DNA of 64,000 bases from Candidatus Krumholzibacteriia bacterium (GCA_024762975.1 JANTGJ010000001.1:2084-66083); one strand, 5' to 3'. Shown: positions 30,385 through 56,136, counted from the first letter of the stretch. Notes: generated from the letters alone by a model not told the origin. Numbers and translations: made by a program.

Positions 30385-31093
30385 GGTATGGGATGCTCCC
30401 TCATTGCTTGGTTCACATTGTGAAAACTGATCAGTACCTTGCTTTGGTCTTGGGAGGTGTCGCCGTTGTGGTGTTACCACCCCCATAGGGAAGTTGTACG
30501 GCAGTGTCCGCGAATCGGATACTTCAGATTCGATGACCTGGGTAAGATAGTCGAAAACGTCGAGTCCATGTACCAGCCAAGTCAGCGAGGTGCCGCCCCA
30601 CGAACCGATGGGACACCCTTATTTTTCTAAGAATCCGCCGATTCTATCACAGCACCACCGCAACCGAATGATCATTTTTCCTGCAGCAGACGCATTGCGT
30701 GTTGAGCGATAGGGAATTTTGTGCCAGTACCTCCTCACTACGAACTGATTCCCGTCCAGAAACTCTTACTACGTGTAGGTTATGGAAAACGAGGTAAAGC
30801 TTACCGCGTGCTGTAGAACCGTTTTTCGTCCAAGAAAACACCGATCGTGGAGGTAACTCCCAGTTGTGTAATAACATGCGGAATTGGCGCCCAATCGTCT
30901 ACCTCTACATCGACCACAAACACGCAGAAGAACGGCTTCAACTACCCGGAACTCGCCTTTCACCAGGCCGATTCACGCTGCTACCGAGCGGGTACTCGGC
31001 GACTATCCGGAGCTGAACTCGTTGGAGCTCGAGGAAGTGAAATCGGCCGGCAATCGATTGCTGGCCGAAGACGGAGTATCCAAAAAGAACTGG

Positions 31094-31382
31094 CTATATG
31101 CCGTCGACCAGTATGCCGGCGTCCACCAGATCGGCGCAGAAGACGACCTGGCCGCCGTGCCGCACCTTCTCGTAACGCGCGTCCAGAACCAGGTACGGCG
31201 CGCGGTCGAGCGGCCGGGTGCGCCAGGACTTGAGCTGCTCGGCGATCTTCAGAACGCTCGAACGGTATTGCTCCGAGGCAGTTGGAGCGTTCCCGCTTCA
31301 TAGCTTCGTTCATCAGGACGGACAGGGCCTTAGCCATGCCGTCCAGGCCGTTTGCGATCAGAATTTTCACAAAAGACATCAC
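31094..31382 (-). pseudogene. IS256-family (mutator-type) transposase remnant, internally deleted and 3'-truncated
   Basis: The minus-strand translation 'ALSVLMNEAMKRERSNCLGAIPFERSEDR' matches the IS256 N-terminal signature (…ERSE-LGA-PYERSEDR…). It then jumps in the +1 frame to 'LKSWRTRPLDRAPYLVLDARYEKVRHGGQVV', matching '(E)WQNRPL…YLvlDa-YiKVR'. About 90 aa in between are missing. A stop follows, and no C-terminal DDE or 'TTN-IE' region was found. Confidence 0.55.
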
Positions 31383-31562: not shown

Positions 31563-34316
31563 ATGCGCATGAGGATCCAAGGTCTGATCCGGACGGCCCT
31601 GCTGGTCGCGTTCGTGATCGTGTCCGGCAATGCCCTGGCCGGCGGAATGACGGGGCTGGTGGTGGACACGGAGACGGGCGATGAGCTGATCGGCGTGGAC
31701 GTGGTCCTGATCGGCACCGGCCTGCGGACTTCCACCGACATCGAGGGCCAGTTCGTCTTTGAGGACCTGGAGCCCGGCACCTACGAGCTACGCATCACCT
31801 ACCTGGGCTACAACGCCCGCGTCATCGGTGACATCACGATCGAGGCTGCGGCGGATGAGCCCTTCGTGCGCGCCCAGCTGGAGAGCTTCAAGGCCCACGA
31901 CGGCGGCGAACTGGTGGTCAGCGGCACGCGCATCATGAGCACCGAGACGGCACTTTTGGCGGAACGCAAGCAGTCCGTGACCATCGGCGACGGCATCAGC
32001 GCCGCGCAGATTTCCCAGTCTCCGGATGGCACTGGCGGGGAAGCCCTCAAGCGCGTCACCGGCCTGACGGTGACCGACGGTAAGTACGTCATCGTGCGCG
32101 GCATGCCCGATCGCTACAACGTGACCCACCTCGACGGCATCTCCGTCACGGGCACCGACGTGACCCGGGACCGCAAGAGCTTCAGCTTTGACATGATCCC
32201 CGCCAACCTGTTGGCCAACCTGCAGGTGGTCAAGAGCGTCACGCCGGAGATGCCCGGCGATGTGACCGGAGGTCTGGTCACCGTCAACACCCTGGAATTT
32301 CCGGAGCACGCCACCACCTCGGTCAGCGTCTCGGCGGGCCACGTGGCCGGCAGTACAGGTGAGGAGTTCCAGCAGGACGCGCTGCTGGGCGATGGCGACT
32401 GGAAGGCCAAGGACGACGGCAGTCGCGCCCTGCCCGACGTCGAGGGCAAGAACGACTTGGCCCGCGGCCTGCCCAACCGCTGGGTCACCGGCACCCGCTC
32501 GGCAGACCCCAAGACCAGCTTCAGCGCGTCGCACGGCAACAAGTTGCACTTCCTGGGCATGGACCTGGGGTACGTGGGGGCACTGAACTATCGCAACAAG
32601 TTCGACGTGACGGACAAGAAGGAGCTGCGCCAGGGCTTCGAGGACATCCTGCTGGAGGGCAAGAAGAGCCAGCGCAAGATTCTCTGGGGCGGCCTGGGCA
32701 ACGTATTCCTGCGCTTGAACAAGGACCACAAGCTGGGCGTGCGCAACATCTACACGCGTAGCGCCGAGAGCGAGGTTCACGATGCCGCCGGCTACGACTC
32801 GGACACGGAGTTCGTGCGCACCAACATCCGCTGGCAGGAACGCTACCAGCTGAGCCATCAGCTCACGGGGACCCACATCCTGGACCGGGTGGTGCGCGGC
32901 CTGGACTTCGACTGGATGGTCTACTACGCGGAGGCCGAGGCTCTGGAGCCAGACAACCGCTTCGTGGAGTACAACATCGACAATCTCGAGGGCCAGCCGC
33001 CCACGATGAGCTTCAACCGGCGCAGTTGGACCATCCTGGAGGACAAGCGGCGCGGCCACGGCTTGAACCTGACCTACAGCTTCGCTGAGTTCGACTTCGA
33101 GGAGGAGTACGCCGTCCAGATGAAGGCGGGCTTTGCGTCGGACAAGTTCGAGCGCACCTACAACATCGACAATTGGTACTCGGACACCACCTTCAGCGCC
33201 GCCAGCCGGGCCCTGCGCCAGCTGCCCATCGATGAGATTTTCGCGCCCGATAACTACAACGAGGTGGACGACGACCGCCGCGGCTCCGGGCTGAACTTCA
33301 AGCAGGAACTGGCCATGAGCGGCGACTACGACGCACGCCAGGACCTGGAGGCGTGGTACGCCATGGCCGTGGTGCCCTTCACCGTCTTCCACGAGGATCT
33401 GACACTGGTGGGCGGCGTGCGCGTGGAGGACAGCGACCAGCAGGTGCTGGCGGTCTACGTGCCGGAGAATGCGGCGTACGTGGATTCGTCGCTGGTGCAG
33501 AAGAAGGACACCCTGCCTTCGGTGAACCTGACTTGGAACTACGACGTGAACCTGAACCTGCGCCTGGCCTACTTCCAGAGCGTGAACCGTCCCGAGTTCC
33601 GCGAGATGGCGCCGGTCACCCGCCGCAACTACGCCACCCTGCAGAACGAGCGCGGCAATCCCGATCTGACGCGGGCATTCATTCGCAACTACGACGTGCG
33701 CCTGGAATTCTACCCGCGTGCGGGTGAGCTGATCTCCGCCAGCTACTTCCGCAAGAAGATGACCGATCCTATCGAGGAGAGCCTGACGCCCACTGCAGAA
33801 GGGCCGCTCCTGTCGTGGACCAACTCGCCTTCGGCCCGGAATCACGGCTTCGAGATCGAGGTGCGGCGCAAGCTGGACTTCCTGCACCTGCTGCGGAATT
33901 TTCAGGCACAGATCAACTACACGCGGGTCTATTCCGAGGTGGAGTTCTACGACCAGTACGATGGCGTCTACTCCACGCGGCCGTTGCAGGGGCAGGCGCC
34001 CTGGGTGATCAACGCGGGGCTCATGTTCCAGCACGAGCCACTGGGGCTGACCTTCAATCTGCTCTATTTCAACAAGGGCCAGAGCCTGCACAGCGTCGGC
34101 GACAACCGTGACTACGACGTCTACCAGGAGCCGCAGGATCTCTTCGATTTCGTGGTGGTCAAGAAGTTCGGCCGCCACCTCAAGGCGAAGCTGGCGGTGA
34201 AGAACCTCTTCGACACCGAATCGACCTATTCAAGCGGCCACGAGACCGAATCCTACACCTACAGCTCCATCTACGACGGGCGCGAGGTCAGCCTTTCCGC
34301 GAGCGCGAAATTTTAA
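31563..34316 (+). CDS. TonB-dependent receptor with N-terminal carboxypeptidase-regulatory-like domain (SusC/RagA-like)
   Basis: Signal peptide, then 'GLVVDTETGDELIGVDVVLIGTGLRTSTDIEGQFVFEDLEPGTYELRITYLGYN' (a CarbopepD_reg-like domain). A plug domain follows ('DGKYVIVRGMPDRYN'), then a long beta-barrel ending in a C-terminal 'F'. Confidence 0.8.
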   Translation: MRMRIQGLIRTALLVAFVIVSGNALAGGMTGLVVDTETGDELIGVDVVLIGTGLRTSTDIEGQFVFEDLEPGTYELRITYLGYNARVIGDITIEAAADEPFVRAQLESFKAHDGGELVVSGTRIMSTETALLAERKQSVTIGDGISAAQISQSPDGTGGEALKRVTGLTVTDGKYVIVRGMPDRYNVTHLDGISVTGTDVTRDRKSFSFDMIPANLLANLQVVKSVTPEMPGDVTGGLVTVNTLEFPEHATTSVSVSAGHVAGSTGEEFQQDALLGDGDWKAKDDGSRALPDVEGKNDLARGLPNRWVTGTRSADPKTSFSASHGNKLHFLGMDLGYVGALNYRNKFDVTDKKELRQGFEDILLEGKKSQRKILWGGLGNVFLRLNKDHKLGVRNIYTRSAESEVHDAAGYDSDTEFVRTNIRWQERYQLSHQLTGTHILDRVVRGLDFDWMVYYAEAEALEPDNRFVEYNIDNLEGQPPTMSFNRRSWTILEDKRRGHGLNLTYSFAEFDFEEEYAVQMKAGFASDKFERTYNIDNWYSDTTFSAASRALRQLPIDEIFAPDNYNEVDDDRRGSGLNFKQELAMSGDYDARQDLEAWYAMAVVPFTVFHEDLTLVGGVRVEDSDQQVLAVYVPENAAYVDSSLVQKKDTLPSVNLTWNYDVNLNLRLAYFQSVNRPEFREMAPVTRRNYATLQNERGNPDLTRAFIRNYDVRLEFYPRAGELISASYFRKKMTDPIEESLTPTAEGPLLSWTNSPSARNHGFEIEVRRKLDFLHLLRNFQAQINYTRVYSEVEFYDQYDGVYSTRPLQGQAPWVINAGLMFQHEPLGLTFNLLYFNKGQSLHSVGDNRDYDVYQEPQDLFDFVVVKKFGRHLKAKLAVKNLFDTESTYSSGHETESYTYSSIYDGREVSLSASAKF

Positions 34317-34723
34317 ATTTACCCGATTCGAATGGGCCTATAACAGGCGACTAACATCGCTCGTCTATCCTGCTCGTGTTCTCGCTGGAGTTCCAGGAGG
34401 ACCGAACACGGGCGACCGAAATTTGAATCATTCTTTCGTCGGACCGCCCCTCGGTAGACCGCTCATCCGGCTGAACAACAACCAAGGTTGGGTTTCGAAA
34501 TGATGGTCTTGGCTGGACCGGATCTTCGAGGGCCGGATTCCCCGGCGCCCGGCCGCCCTTGACCGTGACAACCACCTGAGCCCGTTCGCTGGTAGTCCAC
34601 ATTTGACACTGTTCAGCTTGGACGAGGAATCGCACATCACGAGCCATCGATGATCCTGGGGCGGCGTCATTCCGCCGTCGTCGCCCCCATCGACGCCTTC
34701 AGCTTCTTGAGGAGTGAGATCCA

Positions 34724-36433
34724 ATGAAGAAAATGTTCCTGGCCATCATGGCCGTCTCCCTGTTCCTGGCCGGCACCGCCGTGGCTTGGGTTGGAGATGC
34801 CGACCTGGGTATCCAGGGTAGCACCCCCGAGGATATCAAGTCCCAGTACATCACCGGATTCCGCACCCTGAGCGCGGACACCCTGTACCACCTGCACGGT
34901 ATCGTCTACGTTGACGCCGGCGCCACCCTGAACATTCCCGCCGGTACCACCGTGTACGGCCACGAGTTCGGCACCCTGGTCGTCAAGCCCAGCGGCACCA
35001 TCAACGCTACCGGCACCGCCGGCAACCCCATCGTGTTCACCTCCTCCTACGAGCCCGGCATGCGTCTGCCCGGCGACTGGGGCGGCATTGTGATCCTGGG
35101 CAACGCCCGCGTGAACAAGGCCAACCCCAACATCGAGGGTGGCATCATCGAAGACTCCCTCTTCGGTGGCGACGATGACGAGGATAGCTCCGGTATCTTC
35201 CGCTACGTCCGTATCGAGTTTCCGGGCTACCGCTTCGCTGACGGCAACGAGATCAACGGTCTGACCATGGGCGGCGTCGGTCGCGGCACCGAGCTGCACC
35301 ACGTGCAGGTCAGCTACAGCTGGGACGACTCCTACGAGTGGTTCGGCGGCAACGTTGATGCCAAGTATCTGGTGGCCTTCGGCGGCACCGATGACGAATT
35401 CGACACCGACTTCGGCTACCGCGGCCGCAAGCAGTTCCTCTTCGGCCTGCGCGACCCGGACTTCTGGGACACTGACGCCTCCAACGGCTTCGAGTCCGAC
35501 AACGACGATCCCGCCAGCCTGGACGAGCCTCGCACCGCTCCCATCGTGACCAATGCCACCTTGGCCGGCCCCGAGCGCACCGACGCCCTGGCCGCTGCCG
35601 ACATGGCCAGCGCCAACGGCCGCCGCTTCCAGGACGTGGCCCGTCCCCGTCGCCACACCCGCCTGAGCGTCTTCAACTCCGTGCTGTACGGCTACCAGAA
35701 GGGCATGGCTGTCCGCAACACCCTGACCCAGGATGAGGCTGAGGCCGGCATCCTGCGCTGGCACAACATCAGCATGGCGAACGAGGAGCCCAGCGGCTGC
35801 GGCTCTCCCTACGAGAACGCCATCCACGACTGCGGTGACTGGGCCGACGTGGCGGTCTGGTTCTCCACCCCGGCCTTCAACAACTGGGGTAGCGACGCCC
35901 GCCTGCCGAGCAGCCTGGGCCTGACCAACATGAGTGACCTCAACAACCCCAACCCCGTGCCGGCCTCCGGCAGCGAGCTGATCGGAAGCGCCGACTTCAG
36001 CGACAGCTACCTGGCCGACAACGCGGACTTCTTCGATGTCGTCGACTACCGTGGCGCCTTCGATCCTGCCCTGCCCATGAACCAGCAATGGACCGCCTAC
36101 TGGACCAACTTCGACCCCCAGAACACCCTCTACGATGGTGTCTCCGCGGTGAACGACGTGGTGCCTGGTGCCGTGGCCCAGCTGAACGCCTACCCCAACC
36201 CCTTCAACCCCGCGACGACCATCAAGTTCAGCGCTCCGGTCAACGGTGCCGTGAAGCTGACGGTCTTCACCGCCCGCGGTCTGAAGGTCGCCACCCTGTT
36301 CGAGGGTCAGGTCGAGTTCGGCCGTTCCTACAGCGTGGATTTCAACGGTGAGGGCCTGGCCAGCGGCACCTACTTCTGCCGTATCGAGGGCCACGGCTTC
36401 ACCAGCACGCAGAAGATGCAGCTCGTCAAGTAG
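34724..36433 (+). CDS. secreted protein with T9SS-type C-terminal sorting domain (FlgD-Ig-like CTD); function of the body unknown
   Basis: GGAG RBS and a signal peptide. The roughly 80-aa C-terminus 'AYPNPFNPATTIKFSAPVNGAVKLTVFTARGLKVATLFEGQVEFGRSYSVDFNGEGLASGTYFCRIE' matches the Por/T9SS type-A CTD. The body is Asp/Gly-rich ('SYSWDDSYEWFGG', 'FDTDFGYRG'). Confidence 0.65.
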   Translation: MKKMFLAIMAVSLFLAGTAVAWVGDADLGIQGSTPEDIKSQYITGFRTLSADTLYHLHGIVYVDAGATLNIPAGTTVYGHEFGTLVVKPSGTINATGTAGNPIVFTSSYEPGMRLPGDWGGIVILGNARVNKANPNIEGGIIEDSLFGGDDDEDSSGIFRYVRIEFPGYRFADGNEINGLTMGGVGRGTELHHVQVSYSWDDSYEWFGGNVDAKYLVAFGGTDDEFDTDFGYRGRKQFLFGLRDPDFWDTDASNGFESDNDDPASLDEPRTAPIVTNATLAGPERTDALAAADMASANGRRFQDVARPRRHTRLSVFNSVLYGYQKGMAVRNTLTQDEAEAGILRWHNISMANEEPSGCGSPYENAIHDCGDWADVAVWFSTPAFNNWGSDARLPSSLGLTNMSDLNNPNPVPASGSELIGSADFSDSYLADNADFFDVVDYRGAFDPALPMNQQWTAYWTNFDPQNTLYDGVSAVNDVVPGAVAQLNAYPNPFNPATTIKFSAPVNGAVKLTVFTARGLKVATLFEGQVEFGRSYSVDFNGEGLASGTYFCRIEGHGFTSTQKMQLVK

Positions 36434-36506
36434 GACAGCCTTTGCCGGGCAACCGCAAGACAACAGGATCTGCATCCTGAAGGACAACAGAACGCTGCAT
36501 CACACA

Positions 36507-36545
36507 GGCCCGGCCCCGCACGGGGGCCGGGCCTTCTTCAACTTC
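36507..36545 (+). terminator. rho-independent terminator downstream of the T9SS-CTD gene
   Basis: GGCCCGGCCCC-gcacg-GGGGCCGGGCC, an 11-bp perfect stem, followed by TTCTTCAACTTC. Confidence 0.6.
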
Positions 36546-36841
36546 TCTCCGGCCCCCTGGGACTTCCCGATTGAAGCTCTTCCCGCAAAAATCCATTTCG
36601 AACCTCGATTCCGATTCTTGTTCCGGGGACTGGGGTCGGCCGCCAATCGGCCATCGGGCAAGCCGGGGAGGCCCGGTAAAAAATCCCGACCAGGAGGAAC
36701 GAAATCCTTCTCCGCCTCAAATTCCCTCACCGTTGCTGCGCTGAAACTAACCTCTTCTTTACGAAGCCCACGCATCGCTCTAACCCGCCTCGTGTAATTT
36801 CGTCAACGATCAAACATCCCGAGTCCGCCGAGGAGGTCCCC

Positions 36842-37597
36842 ATGTCGCGGATTGTGTTCCTAGCCGTTCTGGTCGGCGCCGTTTTCTGTTCGGCCGATCT
36901 GATCGCCCAGACCGAAGAGACAACCCAGGAAGTCGATATGCGTATCGACACCGCCGCCGGAACGCAGCAGCAGCTGAACGACTGGTCCACCGAGCGGGAG
37001 CAGGTGGAGGCGCGGTACCGCACCGCCAAGCTGAACATCTCCCAACTGAAGGATCGCCTGGGCGTGGCCGAGAGCCGTGCCGATCTGCTCCGCTCCCAGG
37101 TGGAGGAACTGGAGCGGCGCTTGGGCGAGGCCGGCCGCCTCAAGGCCACCATCAACGACACCATGCAGGTGGTCCTGAGCCGCTTGGAGAAGGCCGTGGA
37201 GGCGGATCAGCCCTTCCTGGTGTCCGAGCGCCGCCAACGCCTAGACGACCTGCGCACCCTGCTGGTCGATGACGAGGTCATCGAGGCCGAGAAGCTGCGC
37301 CGCCTCCTGGAGGCCCTGCTGGTGGAGGCCAAGTACGGCGAGACGGTCGAGGTGACCCAGGAGAGCATTGACCTGAACGGGCAGGAGGTATTCGTGGATC
37401 TGCTGCGCGTGGGTCGCATGAGCCTCTTCTTCATGACGCCCGACAAGACTCTGGCCGGTTCCTACGATCCGGCCCGGCAGAAGTATGTGGAACTCACCAG
37501 TGACAATTACCGCCGGATCGACAAGGCCATGGAGATGGCCTCGAACATGCGTCCCGTGGAACTCCTCAGCCTGCCCCTCGGAAGGATCGAACGATGA
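36842..37597 (+). CDS. DUF3450 family periplasmic protein (TtpB-like first gene of TonB2-type systems)
   Basis: GAGGAGG RBS, a signal peptide, then a coiled-coil-rich region ('LRSQVEELERRLGEAGRLKA') and a C-terminal 'DLNGQEVFVDLLRVGRMSLFFMTPD' segment typical of DUF3450. The stop overlaps the next gene (ATGA). Confidence 0.6.
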   Translation: MSRIVFLAVLVGAVFCSADLIAQTEETTQEVDMRIDTAAGTQQQLNDWSTEREQVEARYRTAKLNISQLKDRLGVAESRADLLRSQVEELERRLGEAGRLKATINDTMQVVLSRLEKAVEADQPFLVSERRQRLDDLRTLLVDDEVIEAEKLRRLLEALLVEAKYGETVEVTQESIDLNGQEVFVDLLRVGRMSLFFMTPDKTLAGSYDPARQKYVELTSDNYRRIDKAMEMASNMRPVELLSLPLGRIER

Positions 37598-39018
37598 AGC
37601 GCCTGATCCTGACGGCGGCGATGGCCCTGCTGGTCCTTGGTGCTGGGGAAAGCCCGGCCGAGGACCTCCGCTCCGCCTACAAGAAGGCCCATGCCGCCCG
37701 CGAGGCGGAGGAGCTGAAGGCCTTGGAGATCGAGGCGCGCATCCTCAATGATCGCGACGCCCTGACGGCCGAGATGGAGCGCCTCGAGGCGGAGATGTCC
37801 GCCCTGGAGACCCGTCTGAGCAATACCGAGAAGTACATCGAGATCACCGAGGGCCGCCGCGCCGACCTGCAGGATAAGTGGGAGGGCAGCGAGCTGGACT
37901 TCCAGGAGATCAGCGGCAACGTCCGCATGGCCGCCCGCGACCTGGAGTCCATGCTGACCCAGTCCCAGCTGACGGCCTTCGATCCCGAGCGCGTGGACCT
38001 GGCCGGCCGCCTGCTGGACAGCGGTTACTTCCCCGACATCGACGACATCAGCGCCATGGCCGGCGTCATCCTGGGCGAGATCAAACAGTCCGGGCAGGTG
38101 GCCATCCGCGACGCGGAGATCATCAACCGCAGCGGCGAGAAGGAGACGGTGCCCGTGCTGGTGCTGGGCCGCTTTACCGCCGCTTACGACGCCCCCGGGG
38201 AGAACGGATTCCTGGATTATTCGACGGACGGACGCAGGTTCGTGGCCCTTTCCAAGCTGCCCACCGGCGGCCTGGGCAAGGACCTCGACGCCTACCTTGC
38301 TGGCCAGACCGATCAGGTGCCCGTGGATTTGTCGCTCGGCAATGCACTACGGCAGATCGTCTATAAAACGGATCTGATGGAGCAGATCCGGGCCGGCGGT
38401 CCGCTCGTCTACCCCATCGCCCTGCTGGCGGTGGTGGCCCTGCTGATCATCCTCTACAAGCTCATCGACCTGAGCATGGTCGGCCAGGGTACCGAGAAGT
38501 TCATGGACCGCATCCAGGATCACGTCTTCCGCGGTGAGTGGAACCGCGTGGAGGCGGTATTGGAGAAGGAGAACGGCCGCTCACCCATCACCAAGGTAAT
38601 CCGCGAGGGCATGAAGGTCCGTGACGAGGATCGCGAAACCCAGGAGAGCGTGCTGCAGGAGGCCATCCTGGCGCAGCTGCCCCGGGTGGAGCGCGGCCTG
38701 TCCATCCTGGCGGTGCTGGGCGCCGTGGCCCCGCTGCTGGGCCTGCTGGGCACAGTGACGGGCATGATCGAGACTTTCCGCGTCATCACCCTGTACGGCA
38801 CGGGCGATCCGAAGCTCATGTCCGGCGGCATCTCCGAGGCCCTGGTGACGACGGAGCTGGGGCTGGCCGTGGCTATCCCCATCATGCTGATGCACACGCT
38901 GTTGAACCGGCGCAGCGATAGCATCGTCGGCAAGATGGAGGAGAAGGCCGTGCAGCTGACCAACATCCTGCAGATCCATCGGCGGGATCCCCTGAAGGTC
39001 ATGGAGGCGAGGGGTTAG
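37594..39018 (+). CDS. TtpC-like large MotA/TolQ/ExbB family proton-channel protein with long periplasmic N-terminal domain
   Basis: About 300 aa of coiled-coil periplasmic domain, then a 3-TM ExbB-like C-terminus ('LGLLGTVTGMIETF', 'GISEALVTTELGLAVAIP'). Confidence 0.65.
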   Translation: MKRLILTAAMALLVLGAGESPAEDLRSAYKKAHAAREAEELKALEIEARILNDRDALTAEMERLEAEMSALETRLSNTEKYIEITEGRRADLQDKWEGSELDFQEISGNVRMAARDLESMLTQSQLTAFDPERVDLAGRLLDSGYFPDIDDISAMAGVILGEIKQSGQVAIRDAEIINRSGEKETVPVLVLGRFTAAYDAPGENGFLDYSTDGRRFVALSKLPTGGLGKDLDAYLAGQTDQVPVDLSLGNALRQIVYKTDLMEQIRAGGPLVYPIALLAVVALLIILYKLIDLSMVGQGTEKFMDRIQDHVFRGEWNRVEAVLEKENGRSPITKVIREGMKVRDEDRETQESVLQEAILAQLPRVERGLSILAVLGAVAPLLGLLGTVTGMIETFRVITLYGTGDPKLMSGGISEALVTTELGLAVAIPIMLMHTLLNRRSDSIVGKMEEKAVQLTNILQIHRRDPLKVMEARG

Positions 39019-39022
39019 AGCC

Positions 39023-39658
39023 ATGTTAGATCATGCAATGAACAGTCTTCTGGACGCGGTCGAGTATCTGCAGCAGGGCGGCTGGGTGATGATCCCCCTG
39101 GCGATCACCTCAGTCATCATGTGGATGATGATTCTCGAGCGGATCCTGGTCTACGCCCGCTTCGGCCGCAGTGAGCTCGATTCCTCCACGGTCCTGGCCA
39201 TCGCGCGCAACGAGAACAAGGGCGTGCGCCGGCAGGGGCTGCGAGGTGAGCTTCTGCGCCGCTTCATGATCGCCCGCTTTGGCGATCCAGAGGTGGACCG
39301 GCACGTCCTGCGCCAGCAACAGGAGGTGATGCGCCGCCATCTGCGGCAGCGCCTGGCGATGATCGCGGTGCTGGCCTCGGTGGCTCCCCTGCTGGGCCTG
39401 CTGGGCACCGTATTGGGCATGATCGAGAGCTTCGAGGTCATCTCCATCTTCGGCACCGGCAACGCCAAGGCTCTGGCCGGCGGCATCTCCATGGCCATGG
39501 TGACGACCCAGGCGGGCCTGGTGATCGCGGTGCCTGGCCTGTTCATCAGTGGCTGGCTGATGCGCAAGGCCCGCACCCTGGAACATAGTCTGGACGAGTT
39601 CGTGCAACAGATCGATCGCCCCCTGCGGGGCCTGGAAAAGGGGATGGCAGCCTCATGA
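39023..39658 (+). CDS. exbB: MotA/TolQ/ExbB proton channel protein
   Basis: 'LGLLGTVLGMIESF' and 'GISMAMVTTQAGLVIAVP' are ExbB/TolQ hallmarks. Confidence 0.8.
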   Translation: MLDHAMNSLLDAVEYLQQGGWVMIPLAITSVIMWMMILERILVYARFGRSELDSSTVLAIARNENKGVRRQGLRGELLRRFMIARFGDPEVDRHVLRQQQEVMRRHLRQRLAMIAVLASVAPLLGLLGTVLGMIESFEVISIFGTGNAKALAGGISMAMVTTQAGLVIAVPGLFISGWLMRKARTLEHSLDEFVQQIDRPLRGLEKGMAAS

Positions 39659-40074
39659 TCAACGTACGCAGAACCATTCGCGGCAGCGGCGACAACGTCG
39701 ACATCAATATGGGGCCCCTGATCGACATGGTGTTTCTGCTACTCATATTTTTCGTGGTGACGACCAGCTTCGTGAAGGAGACGGGCATCGACGTCTCGCG
39801 CAGCAACGCCGCCAGCGCCGAACCCAAGGTGAGCGCCAACATCATGGTCGGCGTCAACGAGCAGGGCGAAGTCTACTTCGAGGGCAAGCAGATCGACGTG
39901 CGCAGTGTGCGCGGCTTGGTCGAGCGCGCCCTCGCCGACGACCCCACGAGTGGCGTCATCGTCGTGGCCGATAAGGCCAGCGAGACGGGCTCCGTGGTCA
40001 AGGTCATGGATCAGGCCCGTCTGGCGGGTGCCGCCGAGGTGAGCCTCGCGGCCCAGAAGGCGACGGCGGAATGA
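39655..40074 (+). CDS. exbD: ExbD/TolR biopolymer transport protein
   Basis: 'INMGPLIDMVFLLLIFFVVT' TM segment and the ExbD periplasmic domain. ATGA overlaps on both sides. Confidence 0.8.
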   Translation: MINVRRTIRGSGDNVDINMGPLIDMVFLLLIFFVVTTSFVKETGIDVSRSNAASAEPKVSANIMVGVNEQGEVYFEGKQIDVRSVRGLVERALADDPTSGVIVVADKASETGSVVKVMDQARLAGAAEVSLAAQKATAE

Positions 40075-40703
40075 GCACCTTGGTCCTCAAGCGCGCGGCC
40101 GGCGGTAGCCTGGTGGTGGGCGGAGCGCTGCTCGCCAACCTGAGCCTGCTGATCTTGCTGGGCATCCTGACGAACCAGCACCACGCGCCGCCGTTGGTGC
40201 CCGACGCCGTGGGCGTCAGCCTGGTCAACCTGGCTCCGCCCGAACCGCCCCCGGTGGAGGATGTGCGTGAGACGCCCCCGCCCCCGCCGCAGCAGAAGCC
40301 CGATTTCGCCCCCGACCTGGTCCAGCCCAGCCTGGGCGACCTGGGCGGCGGCGGTCTCAGCATCGATCTGGGCATCGACCACGTCGAGACCGGCAACGAC
40401 ACCCAGGACTTCATCTTCGACTCGATCGATCTGGATCAGCCTCCGCGTGTCCTCGTGCAGATTCCGCCTGACTACCCCTTCAAGGCCCGCGAGCAGGGCA
40501 TCGAGGGCTACGTGGCGGTCAAGCTGCTGGTGCGTGAGGACGGCAGCGTGGGCAGTATCAACATCCTGAAGGCCAAACCGGCGGGCCTGTTCGAGGATGC
40601 CGTCCGGCGTGCCATTCCCGGCTGGCAGTTCCAGCCCGGCAAAATGGCGGGCGAATCGGTGACCTCCTGGATCGTCACGACGATCCGTTTCGACCTCAAC
40701 TAG
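40071..40703 (+). CDS. tonB: TonB family energy transducer
   Basis: N-terminal TM, a Pro-rich spacer 'APPEPPPVEDVRETPPPPPQQKP', and a C-terminal TonB domain ('YPFKAREQGIEGYVAVKLLVREDGSVGSINILKAKP'). Confidence 0.8.
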   Translation: MSTLVLKRAAGGSLVVGGALLANLSLLILLGILTNQHHAPPLVPDAVGVSLVNLAPPEPPPVEDVRETPPPPPQQKPDFAPDLVQPSLGDLGGGGLSIDLGIDHVETGNDTQDFIFDSIDLDQPPRVLVQIPPDYPFKAREQGIEGYVAVKLLVREDGSVGSINILKAKPAGLFEDAVRRAIPGWQFQPGKMAGESVTSWIVTTIRFDLN

Positions 40704-40729
40704 CCAGCAATCCGATCGGAGATCGCATC

Positions 40730-41980
40730 ATGAGCCTGAAGACCCTCATGCTTCTCGTCCTGGCTGTCCTGACCCTGGCGCCCCTGCCGGCGGGCGCCGT
40801 GGGCAGCGACAACAGTCGTTCCACCACCCTGCCCGAGATCGGCGTCGGCTCGATCCGCATGGACCCCTACGCCCTGGACCTGGTGCCCCGCCGCCTGCGC
40901 AAGCCCGTCTTCCGCGCCACCGTCCTGGTCAAGCGCGGCGAGGACGAAGCCGCCGTTCGAATCCTCTCTGAGCAGCTGGAGAACGAGCCGGACCTGGACC
41001 ACTACCTGCTGCGCTACCACTTGGGCCGCAGCCTGGCCCGCCTCGAGCGCCACGCCGAGGCCGCCGAGCAGTACCGCGCCGCCGTCACCCTGAACCCGGA
41101 ACTGGACCGGGCCTGGATCGGCTTGGGCGACAGCGCCTACAAGATCAAGGACTACGCCACCGCCGCCGAGGGTTTCGAGCAGGGCTTCCACACATCGCCC
41201 GAGCGCCCGATCTCCGTGCTCTACAGCGCCGCCGCCGCGGCCCTGCAGGACGGCGACGGTGCCCACAGCCTGCAACTCTTCCTGGAGCTGGAGACGGGCA
41301 AGTGGGGCACTATGAAGCCCGAATGGTACCGGGGCCTGGCCGCCGCTGCGCTGAAGGCGGAGGACCCCGAAGCTGCGAAGCCGGGTCTGGAAAGGATGCT
41401 GAGCCGCTATCCCGATGACCCGGTTTCCTGGCACCTCTGGTACCAGTTCAACGTGGGCACCAAGGACTACCGCGAGGCGGCCATCGCCCTGACTGTCACG
41501 GGCTACCTGCGCGATCTGACGGAAAGGGAACACGATCAGCTGGGGGACCTGTTCAACATGCTGGGTACCCCCGCCCTCAGCCTGGACCAGTACCGCGGTG
41601 CCCTTGGTGAGCAGCCGGCTGCCCACGGCTACGAGAAGCTGGTCAGCGCCGCTCTGGCCGCCCACGACACCGACACCGCCCTCGCGACCATCGACGAGGC
41701 CCTCGCCTACGAGAAGACCGCCCGCCTGTACAGCCTGCAGGGGGACGTCTTCTACCGCTTGCGCGACTACGAATCCGCCCGGGAAGCCTTCGCCCGCGTC
41801 ATGGAGCTGGATCCGGAATACTCGCGCGCCTACCTGATGGTGGGTTACTGCAGCTTGGAGCTGGGGAATAAGGAGGAGGCCCTGGACAACCTGGGCCGCG
41901 TGAGCGATGACCCGCACCACGGGGACATTGCCCAGCTCCTGATCCAGCGGGCCATGCTGCTGGAGGAGAGCGGAAGCTGA
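40730..41980 (+). CDS. secreted TPR-repeat protein (TtpD-like terminal gene of the TonB2-type cluster)
   Basis: Signal peptide followed by multiple TPR-like repeats across the protein ('AEQYRAAVTLNPELDRAWIGLGDSAYKIKDYATAAEGF'). Confidence 0.6.
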   Translation: MSLKTLMLLVLAVLTLAPLPAGAVGSDNSRSTTLPEIGVGSIRMDPYALDLVPRRLRKPVFRATVLVKRGEDEAAVRILSEQLENEPDLDHYLLRYHLGRSLARLERHAEAAEQYRAAVTLNPELDRAWIGLGDSAYKIKDYATAAEGFEQGFHTSPERPISVLYSAAAAALQDGDGAHSLQLFLELETGKWGTMKPEWYRGLAAAALKAEDPEAAKPGLERMLSRYPDDPVSWHLWYQFNVGTKDYREAAIALTVTGYLRDLTEREHDQLGDLFNMLGTPALSLDQYRGALGEQPAAHGYEKLVSAALAAHDTDTALATIDEALAYEKTARLYSLQGDVFYRLRDYESAREAFARVMELDPEYSRAYLMVGYCSLELGNKEEALDNLGRVSDDPHHGDIAQLLIQRAMLLEESGS

Positions 41981-42031
41981 TCCATTCCAGGAAAACAGGA
42001 TCGTTCTATCCCGTTATTTGCGCGTCACGCG

Positions 42032-42488
42032 TTAGACGAACCCGAGGCGGTCATCTGGGGCGCCTCCATGGCTTTCAAAATGGAGAAATCCCTCATGTTG
42101 AAGACGCCGTTCCGCCCCTTCGCCCTCTTGCTCTTCAAGGAACGCTAGCAAATCAAGACAGGCAAAATCGCCATCGAGATGCACCCGGATCCTGGCAAAA
42201 GGGAAGGATCTGCTGACTTCTGGTAGCAACCGTTTCAGTACGCCAATGGCCTCCAGTTTTGTCGGAGCACTGCCCGGGTGGAGCACTGCGGCGACCAGGT
42301 GCTGTTCCGGTTCATCATGGATCAGGGTCTACAACTGGGGCCAGCCGCACTCTACGCTGTCCGATGACAAGACGCCGATGGAATTGTACGAAGAAAATAG
42401 CGGCATGACGAAGCACGGGGAGTCTACCCTGAATACGCCGCTGACCTGTCCGAAGGATGGGGTCCATCTCATAGCGGCACAATCATAG
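42032..42488. mobile_element. short insertion-sequence remnants (two transposase fragments on opposite strands)
   Basis: The + strand 'WIRVYNWGQPHSTLSDDKTPMELYEE' resembles the C-terminal end of an integrase-core (IS3/IS481-type) transposase ('…YN-eRpHsaLgy-tP-e…'). The - strand 'ARIRVHLDGDFACLDLLAFLEEQ' resembles the 'vRvRaDSGFa…' DDE segment of IS4/IS1380-type transposases. Neither is a full-length ORF. Confidence 0.3.
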
Positions 42489-42498: not shown

Positions 42499-42580
42499 TT
42501 GAATGCGCACACCTCAATGTGGTATCCTGAAGGCACAGCCCGGCGGGAGACGGGATCGTTTCGATCAAAGGGGGAAATCC

Positions 42581-56058: not shown

Positions 56059-56136
56059 CGGCCTCCGTGCGACCAGGATCGAACCCGGGTACAGCGGGTT
56101 CGCGGGATCGAACAATGAAGGAGGCGGGTGCTCCCC

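What the first reader, a model, noticed from the sequence alone, without database searches (positions are those of the whole stretch)
31563..41980. Self-contained TonB-dependent uptake island: SusC-like receptor, T9SS-sorted surface protein and a TtpB/TtpC/ExbB/ExbD/TonB/TtpD-type energizer
A carboxypeptidase-regulatory-domain TonB-dependent receptor is followed by a T9SS-CTD protein in the position where a SusD-like partner would be expected. Then comes a six-gene module with the same gene content and order as the Vibrio-type TonB2 system (DUF3450 protein, large TtpC-like ExbB paralog, ExbB, ExbD, TonB, TPR protein), with ATGA overlaps at the DUF3450/TtpC, ExbB/ExbD and ExbD/TonB junctions. 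A TonB2-type module co-localised with a SusC-like receptor, and with a T9SS cargo replacing SusD, suggests a dedicated substrate-capture and energization unit. It is flanked on both sides by IS remnants (IS256-like at 31.1-31.4 kb, fragments at 42.0-42.5 kb), consistent with acquisition as a unit.
Basis: partly seen in the sequence, partly recalled or inferred. Interest (0 to 1): 0.6.

Follow-up and report, generated by a model that had tools for sequence, protein, structure and literature searches.

The report
Phosphate-linked outer-membrane uptake gene cluster
This eight-gene cluster encodes an outer-membrane importer, a cell-surface beta-helix partner protein and their own energy-coupling motor; it belongs to a very widespread, poorly understood family that other bacteria switch on when starved of phosphate, and here the partner carries a type IX secretion (T9SS) anchor instead of a lipid anchor.

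Summary
All eight genes are present at 31563-41980 with the predicted domains, order and ATGA overlaps. The interpretation needs correcting.

- **Receptor:** it is not a SusC/RagA member (43 bits against a cut-off of 368).
- **T9SS protein:** it is not a stand-in for SusD. It is a right-handed beta-helix protein of Pfam family PF28492.
- **Conserved pair:** a homologous receptor gene lies next to the beta-helix gene in about 70 of 86 related loci across FCB phyla (the Fibrobacterota-Chlorobiota-Bacteroidota superphylum). The pair also occurs in Alpha- and Gammaproteobacteria.
- **Known relatives:** by homology and gene context this is the ElpS / Fjoh_0546 "FII" / BT4056 family. These surface proteins are induced by phosphate starvation and have been proposed as non-SusD lids. 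Their substrate is unknown.
- **Phosphate link:** 24 of 86 loci carry pst, phoU, PHO4, ppx, ppk or oprP genes nearby. The window itself has none.
- **Energizer:** the six-gene TonB2-type module is linked to the pair in eight close relatives, in two orientations. It is also linked in Alteromonas and Pseudoalteromonas, and in Alteromonas the cluster sits beside phoBR-pstS.
- **Mobility:** only one flanking IS remnant is statistically supported, and no repeats bracket the cluster.

Verdict: a T9SS-anchored variant of a known but mechanistically open phosphorus-scavenging system.

The parts
31097..31255 (-). Degenerate IS256-family (Mutator-type) transposase fragment. It is a flank of the cluster, not part of the uptake system.
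   Evidence: The 53-aa translation matches PF00872 at E 3.9e-8, 33 bits against a cut-off of 21. The surrounding frames are broken by stops and a frameshift.
31563..34316 (+). TonB-dependent outer-membrane receptor, 917 aa. It has a signal peptide, an N-terminal CarboxypepD_reg domain, a TonB box (ELVVSGTR), a plug and a beta-barrel. It belongs to the ElpS-associated receptor family, not to SusC/RagA.
   Evidence: Pfam and NCBIfam results. Homologous over about 770-850 aa to the receptors encoded next to beta-helix genes in Alteromonas (28% identity, E 8e-75), Pseudoalteromonas, Indioceanicola and Sphingomonas. A homologous receptor lies next to the beta-helix gene in about 70 of 86 loci.
34317..34723 (+). 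Long receptor-to-beta-helix spacer. It carries a conserved -35-like box, CAC(A/T)TTGACA (TTGACA at 34603-34608), and a conserved GC-rich hairpin (about 34657-34689) ahead of the beta-helix gene. This is probably the gene's own promoter and 5' leader.
   Evidence: The spacer is 407-543 bp in the five Krumholzibacteria-like loci. The box is invariant and the hairpin arms GGGGCGG/CCGCCCC are conserved. The covariation test was inconclusive.
34724..36433 (+). Surface partner protein, 569 aa. It has a type I signal peptide, a right-handed parallel beta-helix (about residues 24-470, Pfam PF28492 Beta_helix_4), a linker and a T9SS type A C-terminal sorting domain (about residues 486-567).
36507..36533 (+). 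Perfect GC-rich hairpin after the beta-helix gene, followed by a T-rich stretch. It is a likely transcription stop separating the beta-helix gene from the energizer operon.
   Evidence: Read directly from the sequence. The consensus terminator scan did not call it because the T run is short.
36842..37597 (+). TtpB-like periplasmic coiled-coil protein (DUF3450), 251 aa, with a signal peptide.
   Evidence: PF11932, E 4e-59. 30-33% identical to the DUF3450 proteins of the Alteromonas and Pseudoalteromonas clusters. TtpB2 of Vibrio vulnificus is 255 aa and the first gene of the tonB2 operon (PMC6957404).
37594..39018 (+). TtpC-like large ExbB paralogue, 474 aa. It has a long N-terminal periplasmic region and a C-terminal MotA/TolQ/ExbB channel domain.
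   Evidence: PF01618 at residues 329-449. 31% identical over about 420 aa to the 454-455-aa proteins of L087 and L088. A 171-nt repeat shared with exbB shows the paralogy. The start overlaps the upstream stop as ATGA.
39023..39658 (+). ExbB, 211 aa.
   Evidence: PF01618, E 1.5e-27.
39655..40074 (+). ExbD, 139 aa.
   Evidence: PF02472, E 2e-26. 48-50% identical to the Alteromonadales ExbD proteins. ATGA overlap.
40071..40703 (+). TonB, 210 aa, with an N-terminal membrane anchor, a Pro-rich spacer and a TonB_C domain.
   Evidence: PF03544, E 6e-18. Sequence features read. ATGA overlap.
40730..41980 (+). TtpD-like TPR protein, 416 aa, with a signal peptide.
   Evidence: Multiple TPR families. It holds the same position and has a similar size to TtpD2 (425 aa; PMC6957404). 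Sequence similarity to the Alteromonas TPR protein is only weak.
42032..42488 (.). Possible short transposase or integrase relics on the right flank. They are not statistically supported.
   Evidence: DDE_Tnp_1_4 E 0.018 and rve_3 E 0.038, both far below the curated cut-offs.

Best explanation
The region encodes a complete outer-membrane import machine of the ElpS / FII / BT4056 type.

**Proposed mechanism**
1. The 569-aa beta-helix protein is exported by the Sec pathway and then by the type IX secretion system. Its C-terminal domain keeps it on the cell surface (inferred).
2. There it captures, and possibly processes, a phosphorus-containing and probably polyanionic substrate. It would do so through a strictly conserved ladder of acidic residues that most likely holds metal ions such as Ca2+ (inferred).
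3. It hands the substrate to the adjacent TonB-dependent receptor, acting as a non-SusD lid or partner (inferred).
4. The receptor's plug is pulled by the TonB encoded five genes downstream. That TonB is powered by a TonB2-type inner-membrane and periplasmic complex of TtpB-like DUF3450, TtpC-like large ExbB, ExbB, ExbD, TonB and a TtpD-like TPR protein (inferred).

**Shown here:** gene content, folds, homology, and conserved linkage within and across phyla.

**Inferred:** surface display, physical pairing, phosphate-starvation regulation and the nature of the substrate.
For: **Domains and fold:**

**Pairing with the receptor**
- A homologous receptor lies next to the beta-helix gene in about 70 of 86 loci from Krumholzibacteriota, Latescibacterota, Eisenbacteria, Ignavibacteriota and Bacteroidota.
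- In FCB loci it is nearly always immediately upstream on the same strand.

**Surface display**
- The same beta-helix module is displayed either through a T9SS C-terminal domain (32 proteins) or through a lipoprotein signal with a Bacteroidota-type export motif (32 proteins).
- No protein has both. This is what one expects of a protein that must sit on the cell surface.

**Homology to ElpS-context proteins**
- hhalign gives 99.85% probability, E 1.3e-30, to the Sphingomonas protein in the layout [beta-helix]-[receptor]-gspN-gspD-gspE.
- The same layout occurs in Indioceanicola.
- It is the layout described for elpS-cc0171-T2SS (PMC2996285).

**Link to phosphate in relatives**
- 24 of 86 loci have Pst, PhoU, PHO4, Ppx, Ppk or OprP genes within 10 kb.
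- 35 of 86 do if OmpR-type two-component systems, Metallophos and OlsF-like genes are included.
- Alteromonas macleodii has phoB-phoR-pstS-...-[beta-helix]-[receptor]-DUF3450-TtpC-ExbB-ExbD-TonB-TPR.
- ElpS is induced by phosphate starvation, is surface-exposed and raises alkaline phosphatase activity (PMC2996285).
- Fjoh_0545 and Fjoh_0546 are induced 2^8 to 2^10-fold on phosphate depletion (PMC8115612).
- BT4056 is modelled on the outer face of BT4055, and the pair is conserved in 621 genera (bioRxiv 10.1101/2023.03.17.533168).

**Link to the energizer**
- The module is adjacent in L001, L002, L004, L005, L007 (downstream) and in L008, L010, L011 (divergent).
- It is also adjacent in L087 and L088.
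- All six module proteins are homologous to those of L087 and L088.

**Functional site:** E176, D201, D202, E205, D223, D224, D227, E257 and D259 are invariant in 16 modules from FCB, Alpha- and Gammaproteobacteria.
Against: - The window has no pst, phoBR or phosphatase gene next to the cluster. The only nearby phosphorus-related gene is a cytosolic-type 5'-nucleotidase beyond the IS remnant.
- No E. coli-type Pho box was found in any intergenic region of the window or its close relatives.
- Most loci that carry the TonB2-type module lack obvious phosphate genes; L010 has an OprP-like porin.
- L003, at 58% identity with full flanks, has the pair without the module.
- L092, at 85% nucleotide identity, has the module preceded by a CARDB-domain protein rather than the beta-helix gene, although the contig ends 2.7 kb upstream.
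- No ligand is known for any member of the family.
- The window holds no T9SS machinery genes, so secretion competence is assumed.
Confidence: 0.6

Rival explanations
1. It is a glycan utilisation unit. The beta-helix protein would be a surface polysaccharide lyase or hydrolase (pectate-lyase, alginate-lyase or polygalacturonase type) that cuts an acidic polysaccharide, and the receptor would import the oligosaccharides, as in a minimal polysaccharide utilisation locus.
For: - A ladder of invariant acidic residues is also typical of the Ca2+-dependent lyase site and of GH28 active sites.
- Lidbury et al. raised this idea for the F. johnsoniae proteins FI-FIII (PMC8115612).
Against: - There is no sequence match to any Pfam beta-helix enzyme family at E of 0.01 or better: pectate lyase, GH28, Beta_helix or NosD.
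- Identity to all structural neighbours is 14% or less, and the fold is generic.
- None of the neighbour families that were annotated was a recognisable sugar-cleaving enzyme; they were glycosyltransferases and phosphate genes.
- The recurrent neighbours are instead Pst, PhoU, PHO4, Ppx, Ppk, OprP and PhoBR-like genes.
- Experimental induction is by phosphate starvation, not by glycans (PMC2996285; PMC8115612).
Confidence: 0.12
2. It is an iron or siderophore uptake unit, as for the Vibrio TonB2 system. The receptor would import a ferric chelate or haem, and the beta-helix protein would act as a hemophore-like or siderophore-binding surface protein.
For: - The six-gene TonB2 system of vibrios is needed for siderophore uptake under iron limitation (PMC6957404).
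- In Pseudoalteromonas the cluster lies about 3 kb from fhuF and an IucA/IucC siderophore locus.
Against: - The window receptor scores only 35-41 bits on the haem and transferrin receptor models and does not hit siderophore receptor models.
- The window and the 86 loci have no siderophore synthesis, Fur, FecIR or haem genes as recurrent neighbours.
- F. johnsoniae Fjoh_0545 and Fjoh_0546 are repressed under iron and nitrogen limitation and induced only by phosphate depletion (PMC8115612).
Confidence: 0.06
3. The adjacency is incidental. The TonB2-type module would be the organism's general TonB system, serving all receptors, and it would merely sit next to this receptor. The cluster would be a rearrangement product at an IS-rich spot.
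For: - The three blocks have their own spacers, and a hairpin separates the beta-helix gene from the module.
- L003 has the pair without the module.
- L092 has the module without an immediately adjacent beta-helix gene.
- Most FCB loci (Ignavibacteriota, Bacteroidota) have no TonB genes near the pair.
- The window contains no other ExbB, ExbD or TonB gene that could show redundancy.
Against: - The same eight gene families are linked in eight relatives at 37-87% protein identity, in two different orientations.
- They are also linked in Alteromonas and Pseudoalteromonas.
- The flanking genes of all these loci differ from those of the window.
- Chance adjacency would not survive that much divergence and rearrangement.
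Confidence: 0.15
4. It is a mobile island recently acquired as a unit, for example as a composite transposon bounded by IS elements.
For: - There is an IS256-family fragment at 31097-31255.
- There are weak transposase-like ORFs at 42.0-42.5 kb.
- Flanking genes differ between the window and even the relative at 78% identity.
Against: - No intact transposase is present.
- The two flanks do not share an IS family.
- No direct or inverted repeats bracket the cluster.
- GC content matches the rest of the window.
- Relatives carrying the same eight genes (L002, L004, L007) show no called transposase gene next to the cluster.
Confidence: 0.07

Closest known systems
ElpS (CC0170) with TonB-dependent receptor CC0171 of Caulobacter crescentus (Le Blastier et al. 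2010, PMC2996285)
   Same: - A beta-helix-type surface protein is encoded next to a homologous TonB-dependent receptor.
- The conserved motifs are shared with elpS-position proteins of Sphingomonas and Indioceanicola: GDWGG, IEG, DxSG, NEINGLTxGG, DDSxExFGG and DDxFDxDxGYxG.
- ElpS is exposed on the surface.
   Different: - ElpS is a lipoprotein released by a protease that depends on the type II secretion system (T2SS), and its locus is linked to T2SS genes.
- The window protein has a type I signal peptide and a T9SS C-terminal domain, and its locus is linked to a TonB2-type module.
- Gene order is reversed: the beta-helix gene comes first in Proteobacteria, and the receptor gene comes first here.
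- The window receptor has an extra N-terminal CarboxypepD_reg domain.
- No direct alignment with CC0170 itself was made.
Fjoh_0545 (receptor) with Fjoh_0546 ('FII' lipoprotein) of Flavobacterium johnsoniae, and BT4055 with BT4056 of Bacteroides thetaiotaomicron (PMC8115612; bioRxiv 10.1101/2023.03.17.533168)
   Same: - The receptor architecture is the same: Plug, CarbopepD_reg_2 and OMP_b-brl_3.
- The receptor gene comes first, followed by a pectin-lyase-fold protein with no older Pfam family.
- The Bacteroidota loci found here have the same phoBR, pst and oprP neighbourhood.
- The partner is proposed to sit on the outer face of the receptor as a non-SusD lid.
   Different: - Those partners are lipoproteins; the window protein is T9SS-sorted.
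- Those loci have no adjacent TonB system.
- Phosphate regulation is shown for F. johnsoniae only and is inferred here.
TonB2 system of Vibrio (ttpB-ttpC-exbB2-exbD2-tonB2-ttpD; PMC6957404)
   Same: - It has the same six gene families in the same order, with matching sizes (251, 474, 211, 139, 210 and 416 aa here, against 255 aa for TtpB2 and 425 aa for TtpD2).
- The gene junctions are translationally coupled.
   Different: - It lies in a non-proteobacterial FCB lineage.
- It is linked to an ElpS-type receptor pair rather than to iron uptake genes.
- Sequence comparison was made only with the Alteromonadales modules (30-50% identity), not with the Vibrio proteins.
SusC/SusD (RagA/RagB) outer-membrane complexes of Bacteroidota
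   Same: - A TonB-dependent receptor with an N-terminal carboxypeptidase-regulatory-like domain is followed by a gene for a surface-exposed partner.
- The expected working principle is the same: a surface partner captures the ligand above the barrel.
   Different: - The receptor fails the SusC/RagA family model.
- The partner is a beta-helix, not an all-helical TPR-like SusD.
- The partner is anchored by T9SS rather than by a lipid.
- No glycan-degrading genes are present.

Membership tests
SusC/RagA-SusD system | The receptor matches the SusC/RagA family model (TIGR04056) above its cut-off. | tested here: not met
   It scores 43 bits against a cut-off of 368, and the match covers only residues 50-107, the N-terminal domain.
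SusC/RagA-SusD system | The adjacent gene encodes a SusD-family lipoprotein. | tested here: not met
   The adjacent protein hits only Por_Secre_tail in Pfam. It folds as a parallel beta-helix and has no lipobox.
ElpS / FII / BT4056-type receptor-plus-beta-helix pair | The partner has a pectin-lyase-like right-handed beta-helix fold and belongs to the same sequence family. | tested here: met
- PF28492 is assigned to the identical database protein.
- hhalign gives 99.85% probability to the Sphingomonas elpS-position protein.
- tblastn E values of 1e-38 to 3e-31 to Pseudoalteromonas, Alteromonas and Indioceanicola.
ElpS / FII / BT4056-type receptor-plus-beta-helix pair | The partner gene lies next to a homologous TonB-dependent receptor gene on the same strand. 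| tested here: met
   This holds in the window, in about 70 of 86 loci, and in the proteobacterial loci L087, L088, L089 and L093. The receptors are homologous over about 770-850 aa.
ElpS / FII / BT4056-type receptor-plus-beta-helix pair | The partner is exposed on the cell surface. The described members achieve this as lipoproteins. | tested here: inconclusive
   The window protein has no lipobox. It carries a T9SS type A C-terminal domain, which also delivers proteins to the surface. Across 88 homologues the lipobox and the C-terminal domain are mutually exclusive alternatives. Localisation itself cannot be tested here.
ElpS / FII / BT4056-type receptor-plus-beta-helix pair | The pair is induced by phosphate starvation, that is, it belongs to the Pho regulon. 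| not testable with these tools
   - Context only: 24 of 86 loci have phosphate-homeostasis genes nearby, and Alteromonas has phoBR-pstS adjacent.
- No E. coli-type Pho box was found near the window genes, but the PhoB motif of this lineage is unknown.
TonB2 (TtpB-TtpC-ExbB-ExbD-TonB-TtpD) system | It has six genes in the order DUF3450, large ExbB paralogue, ExbB, ExbD, TonB, TPR protein. | tested here: met
   The order and sizes match PMC6957404.
TonB2 (TtpB-TtpC-ExbB-ExbD-TonB-TtpD) system | TtpC has a long N-terminal extension and a C-terminal MotA/TolQ/ExbB domain, and is a paralogue of the adjacent ExbB. | tested here: met
   MotA_ExbB lies at residues 329-449 of 474. A 171-nt repeat at 76% identity is shared with exbB. 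It is 31% identical over about 420 aa to the 454-455-aa proteins of Alteromonadales.
TonB2 (TtpB-TtpC-ExbB-ExbD-TonB-TtpD) system | All six proteins are required to energise the cognate receptor(s). | not testable with these tools
   This needs genetics. Only conserved linkage to the receptor pair is shown.
T9SS type A cargo | The C-terminal sorting domain matches the family models and folds as a beta-sandwich. | tested here: met
   - TIGR04183 scores 27.0 against a cut-off of 23, and PF18962 scores 27.2 against 27.
- The model has a beta-sandwich at residues 486-567.
- Foldseek matches the mirolase C-terminal domain, 8qb1, with probability 1.0.
T9SS type A cargo | The genome encodes the T9SS machinery: PorK/L/M/N, SprA/Sov and PorU/V. 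| not testable with these tools
   None was found among the window genes that were scanned, and only 64 kb of the genome is available. A second protein with a C-terminal sorting domain, at 42503-44101, suggests that the system is in use.
IS-bounded mobile island / composite transposon | The same IS family lies at both ends, with terminal repeats or target duplications. | tested here: not met
   The left flank has one degenerate Transposase_mut fragment, and the right flank has only sub-threshold matches to other families. No bracketing repeats were found.

The most novel reading that the evidence does not exclude
The eight genes would form one ancient, cross-phylum machine for taking up phosphorus across the outer membrane.

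- The DUF3450/TtpC-type 'TonB2-like' motor would be the dedicated energizer of the ElpS-type receptor pair, from Gammaproteobacteria to Krumholzibacteriota.
- The beta-helix partner would be a metal-dependent binder or enzyme for a polyanionic phosphorus source such as polyphosphate, phytate, nucleic acid or mineral-bound phosphate.
- It would reach the surface by whichever route the lineage offers: lipoprotein export in Bacteroidota and Proteobacteria (with T2SS-dependent release in Caulobacter), or T9SS in the FCB lineages that carry the C-terminal sorting domain.

This would give a function to the orphan ElpS/FII/BT4056 family. It might also give one to TtpC-type TonB systems that iron does not regulate.
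Probability: 0.3. Interest if true: 0.7.

Novelty: new variant of a known kind. Interest (0 to 1): 0.5.

Why it matters
**Size of the family.** The beta-helix partner family is very large. It has 6163 representatives at 50% identity clustering. According to Price et al., the pair lies in proximity in 621 genera.

**Open question.** Family members are among the most strongly phosphate-starvation-induced surface proteins in Flavobacterium and Caulobacter. Even so, no substrate or mechanism is known.

**Three testable leads from this locus and its relatives**
- The partner can be anchored by T9SS instead of a lipid. What matters is therefore its place on the surface, not the type of anchor.
- A ladder of nine invariant acidic residues marks the probable working site.
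- A TonB2-type six-gene motor is genomically tied to the pair in two distant phyla, and in Alteromonas it lies beside phoBR-pstS. In the paper library searched here, no listed paper mentioned TtpC together with phosphate starvation.

**If confirmed,** this would describe a route for phosphorus entry through the outer membrane that is separate from porins and from SusCD-like PusCD complexes.

Tried and rejected
- **Sequence search of solved structures** with the beta-helix protein gave no hit. With the receptor it gave only a spurious 22-bit hit.
- **Rfam** found no family anywhere in the window, so there is no riboswitch. This includes cobalamin, which I considered because a class II ribonucleotide reductase lies upstream in L004.
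- **Pho box scan** with the E. coli consensus found nothing convincing in 20 intergenic regions. This is uninformative for a lineage whose motif is unknown.
- **Consensus fold of the conserved 5' hairpin** was inconclusive. One of my coordinate choices (L007) was off, and only 1 of 11 pairs showed a compensatory change.
- **The search for homologous proteins with a Parabacteroides homologue** was meant to reach BT4056. It returned only near-identical Parabacteroides proteins.
- **Metagenome scan with the single TtpC protein** returned one locus only, so the reverse question could not be answered: how often are TtpC modules next to PF28492 genes?
- **Promoter and terminator consensus scan** found nothing above the shuffled expectation.
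- **Repeat search** found no repeats bracketing the cluster.
- **Search of the window for further ExbB, ExbD or TonB genes** found none. Whether this is the only TonB system of the genome cannot be settled from 64 kb.

Full report
**What is in the sequence**

The window is GC-rich, about 63%, with no compositional break at the region. Eight co-directional genes occupy 31563-41980.

| Coordinates | Product |
|---|---|
| 31563-34316 | 917-aa TonB-dependent receptor: CarboxypepD_reg domain, plug, barrel |
| 34724-36433 | 569-aa protein with a T9SS type A C-terminal sorting domain |
| 36842-37597 | DUF3450 protein |
| 37594-39018 | 474-aa protein with a MotA/TolQ/ExbB domain at its C-terminus |
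| 39023-39658 | ExbB |
| 39655-40074 | ExbD |
| 40071-40703 | TonB |
| 40730-41980 | 416-aa TPR protein |

The ATGA overlaps at 37594, 39655 and 40071 are real. The receptor has a TonB box, ELVVSGTR, just after its N-terminal domain.

The cluster is not one tight operon. A 407-bp spacer separates the receptor and beta-helix genes. After the beta-helix gene come a perfect GC hairpin at 36507-36533 and a 408-bp spacer before the DUF3450 gene.

**Flanks**

On the left, a 53-aa stretch on the minus strand (31097-31255) matches the Mutator/IS256 transposase family above threshold, at E 3.9e-8. It is a broken relic. On the right, the short ORFs at 42.0-42.5 kb give only sub-threshold matches, at E 0.018 and 0.038. 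No direct or inverted repeats bracket the cluster.

The neighbouring genes are:
- a cytosolic-type 5'-nucleotidase (28966-30486, minus strand);
- a second protein with FlgD_ig and T9SS sorting domains (42503-44101);
- a 1597-aa UvrA-like protein.

The window contains no other ExbB, ExbD or TonB gene. No T9SS machinery or pst/phoBR genes were found among the genes scanned.

**The receptor is not SusC**

The SusC/RagA model scores 43 bits against a cut-off of 368, and the match covers only the N-terminal domain. The best NCBIfam match is TIGR01782 (TonB-Xanth-Caul), at 245 bits and below its cut-off.

**The T9SS protein is a beta-helix**

- An AlphaFold2 model built on 32 homologues has pLDDT 85. 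It shows a right-handed parallel beta-helix (about residues 24-470), a disordered linker and a C-terminal beta-sandwich.
- Foldseek matches the C-terminal part to the T9SS C-terminal domain of mirolase.
- No solved structure is related by sequence, and no enzymatic beta-helix Pfam family is hit.
- The identical database protein carries the recent Pfam family PF28492, Beta_helix_4.
- The family is large: 6163 representatives at 50% identity clustering with E of 0.001 or better.
- There are single-module forms of about 555 aa, tandem two-module forms of about 945 aa and larger multi-module forms.

**Conserved pairing**

A scan of one genome per species returned at least 593 matches. The best 80 are mostly from FCB lineages: Krumholzibacteriota, Latescibacterota, Eisenbacteria, Ignavibacteriota and many Bacteroidota, including Hymenobacter, Pontibacter, Adhaeribacter, Chitinophaga, Parabacteroides and Prevotella.

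In about 70 of 86 loci a homologue of the window receptor lies next to the beta-helix gene, nearly always immediately upstream on the same strand. Most exceptions are truncated contigs.

Of 88 beta-helix homologues, 32 have a T9SS-type C-terminal motif and 32 have a lipoprotein signal followed by an acidic Bacteroidota-type export motif. None has both. The same module is therefore sent to the surface by alternative routes. This is good indirect evidence that it works on the cell surface with the receptor.

**Identity with a known family**

tblastn against plasmid and chromid records found proteobacterial homologues with E values of 1e-38 to 4e-14. Their annotated neighbourhoods are informative:
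- Sphingomonas parapaucimobilis and Indioceanicola profundi have [beta-helix protein]-[TonB-dependent receptor]-gspN-gspD-gspE. This is the layout Le Blastier et al. described for elpS (cc0170), cc0171 and the type II secretion genes of Caulobacter and Sphingomonas (PMC2996285).
- The window family profile aligns to the Sphingomonas protein with 99.85% probability, E 1.3e-30, sharing all the signature motifs.
- The receptors are homologous over about 770 aa.

What is known about the family:
- ElpS is a surface lipoprotein made under phosphate starvation. It is then released and raises extracellular alkaline phosphatase activity (PMC2996285).
- In F. johnsoniae, the receptor Fjoh_0545 has the same Pfam architecture as the window receptor. 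The pectin-lyase-fold lipoprotein Fjoh_0546 ('FII') sits in the phoBR operon. Both are induced 2^8 to 2^10-fold by phosphate depletion (PMC8115612).
- Price et al. proposed BT4056, which is 40% identical to Fjoh_0546 and distantly related to ElpS, as a non-SusD lid of BT4055. They found the pair in proximity in 621 genera (bioRxiv 10.1101/2023.03.17.533168).

I could not align the window protein with those three named proteins directly. The assignment rests on the elpS-position homologues, the fold, the receptor architecture and the context.

**Phosphate context**

I clustered the neighbouring ORFs of the 86 loci and annotated the recurrent clusters:

| Neighbour family | Loci |
|---|---|
| Peptidase_M28 | 16 |
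| PstS | 15 |
| OmpR-type response regulator | 15 |
| Histidine kinase | 9 |
| PstC/A | 8 |
| PhoU | 8 |
| OlsF-like acyltransferase (phosphorus-free lipids) | 7 |
| PHO4/Pit transporter | 6 |
| Metallophos | 6 |
| Exopolyphosphatase (Ppx) | 5 |
| GT4 glycosyltransferase | 5 |
| Polyphosphate kinase (Ppk) | 4 |
| OprO/P-like porin | 4 |

In all, 24 of 86 loci have an unambiguous phosphate-homeostasis gene within 10 kb (18 of the 52 loci with at least 15 kb). A rough expectation for a random gene is about 1%; this figure is my own estimate, not a computed control. In Melioribacter the pair is followed directly by pstSCAB-phoU.

The window itself has none of these genes. No E. coli-type Pho box was found. 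Phosphate regulation of this particular locus is therefore inferred, not shown.

**The energizer**

Gene content, order and sizes match the six-gene Vibrio TonB2 operon, ttpB-ttpC-exbB-exbD-tonB-ttpD (PMC6957404).

Among the closest relatives the module is adjacent to the pair in eight loci:
- downstream and co-directional in L001, L002, L004, L005 and L007;
- upstream and divergent, with a 212-295-bp shared spacer, in L008, L010 and L011.

The genes flanking these loci share nothing with the window's flanks.

The same eight families are also clustered in Gammaproteobacteria:
- Pseudoalteromonas: module, then beta-helix protein, then receptor.
- Alteromonas macleodii: phoB-phoR-pstS-2OG oxygenase, then beta-helix protein, receptor and module.

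All eight window proteins have homologues there; similarity is only weak for the TPR protein. ExbD is 48-50% identical, TtpC 31% over about 420 aa, and the receptor 27-28% over 720-850 aa.

There are counter-examples:
- L003 has the pair without the module.
- A metagenomic relative with 85% nucleotide identity over 36780-41981 (L092) has a CARDB-domain protein rather than the beta-helix gene upstream of the module, and an inorganic pyrophosphatase downstream. The contig ends 2.7 kb upstream, so it is unknown whether the pair lies further on.

Most Bacteroidota and Ignavibacteriota loci have no TonB genes nearby. The linkage is strong but not obligatory.

**Probable working site**

I aligned 16 beta-helix modules from FCB bacteria, Alphaproteobacteria and Gammaproteobacteria. 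The following residues are invariant: W119, N131, E176, N178, T189, D201, D202, E205, D223, D224, D227, E257, D259, N277, T279, R309 and N318, plus structural Gly and Pro residues.

The acidic residues recur at a spacing of about 22-26 residues, one helix turn, so they should line one face of successive rungs.

Such ladders bind Ca2+ in pectate lyases. In Ca2+-dependent phytases, bound metals create the site for phosphate groups; this rests on general knowledge. I therefore favour metal-mediated binding, or hydrolysis, of a polyanionic phosphorus compound. This step is the weakest part of the explanation.

**Rivals**

- A glycan-lyase or PUL-like role fits the fold. It does not fit the gene context or the published induction pattern.
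- An iron-uptake role fits the Vibrio precedent for TonB2. It does not fit the receptor type, the neighbours, or the repression of the Flavobacterium genes under iron limitation (PMC8115612).
- Incidental adjacency of a general TonB system is contradicted by the cross-phylum linkage, but it cannot be fully excluded from a 64-kb window.
- A recently acquired IS-bounded island is not supported.

**Novelty**

Both building blocks are known kinds: the ElpS/FII/BT4056 receptor pair and the TonB2-type six-gene system. The differences here are the T9SS anchor of the partner, the occurrence in a Krumholzibacteria-like lineage, and the physical coupling of the two blocks.

In the paper library, none of the best-ranked papers returned for TtpC together with phosphate starvation, phosphate limitation or PhoB mentioned TtpC. 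The papers on the receptor pair that I read describe T2SS or phoBR neighbours, not a TonB system. The coupling, and its presence next to phoBR-pstS in Alteromonas, may therefore be an unreported observation. It deserves a systematic test.

Noticed in passing
window 34317-34723; also L002 3812-4289, L003 9579-10000, L004 9458-10000, L007 9459-10000: The receptor-to-beta-helix spacer is unusually long in the Krumholzibacteria-like loci, at 407-543 bp, whereas many Ignavibacteriota and Bacteroidota loci have much shorter gaps of about 10-100 bp. It contains an invariant CAC(A/T)TTGACA box (window 34600-34608) and a conserved GGGGCGG...CCGCCCC hairpin (about 34657-34689) 35-65 nt before the start codon. 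It may be a promoter plus a regulatory 5' leader.
   Followed up: partly
L014, L018, L020, L022-L025, L030, L032, L036, L037, L050, L052, L059, L069, L075 (for example L022 3139-4815): A gene for a Peptidase_M28 protein of about 540 aa recurs within 10 kb of the beta-helix gene in 16 loci of Ignavibacteriota, Hymenobacter and Chitinophagaceae. In the loci I looked at, such as L022, it lies directly downstream. ElpS of Caulobacter is released from the surface by a secreted protease, so a dedicated processing peptidase is conceivable.
   Followed up: no
window 28966-30486 (minus strand): A 506-aa protein matches the cytosolic purine 5'-nucleotidase family PF05761 very strongly, at E 9e-143. To my knowledge this family is mainly eukaryotic. 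It lies just beyond the IS256 relic from the receptor gene. In L003 a secreted 5'-nucleotidase (5_nucleotid_C plus FlgD_ig) lies divergently upstream of the homologous receptor.
   Followed up: no
window 42503-44101: A second protein with T9SS sorting and FlgD_ig-type C-terminal domains lies directly downstream of the cluster. It is 532 aa and has no other recognised domain. L010 has a weak homologue at a similar position (13353-14966).
   Followed up: no
window 44227-49020: A 1597-aa UvrA-like protein carries two sets of ABC ATPase and UvrA DNA-binding domains. From memory this is about 1.7 times the length of a normal UvrA.
   Followed up: no
window 56128-58572: A single 814-aa ORF combines a COX1 domain (residues 20-450) and a FixO domain (residues 552-777). 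This looks like a fused CcoN-CcoO subunit of a cbb3-type oxidase. It is followed by a FixG-like gene at 59426-60811.
   Followed up: no
L092 23-2407 and 7909-8799: In the closest metagenomic relative of the TonB2-type module, the module is preceded by a CARDB-domain protein and followed by an inorganic pyrophosphatase with an N-terminal extension. A CARDB lipoprotein, Fjoh_0549, is also part of the phosphate-induced phoBR cluster of F. johnsoniae (PMC8115612).
   Followed up: partly
L088 8060-8851 (Alteromonas macleodii pBGP9): A 2OG-Fe(II) oxygenase gene sits between pstS and the 1356-aa three-module beta-helix gene in the Alteromonas cluster. Its role is unknown.
   Followed up: no
P0125 and relatives (Parabacteroides; L057 9614-11257): The gut Parabacteroides versions of the partner carry an extra N-terminal Big_2 Ig-like domain and are annotated only as 'Ig-like domain-containing protein'. 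One Hymenobacter plasmid copy is annotated as 'cell shape-determining protein MreB' (L091), which is evidently a mis-annotation.
   Followed up: no
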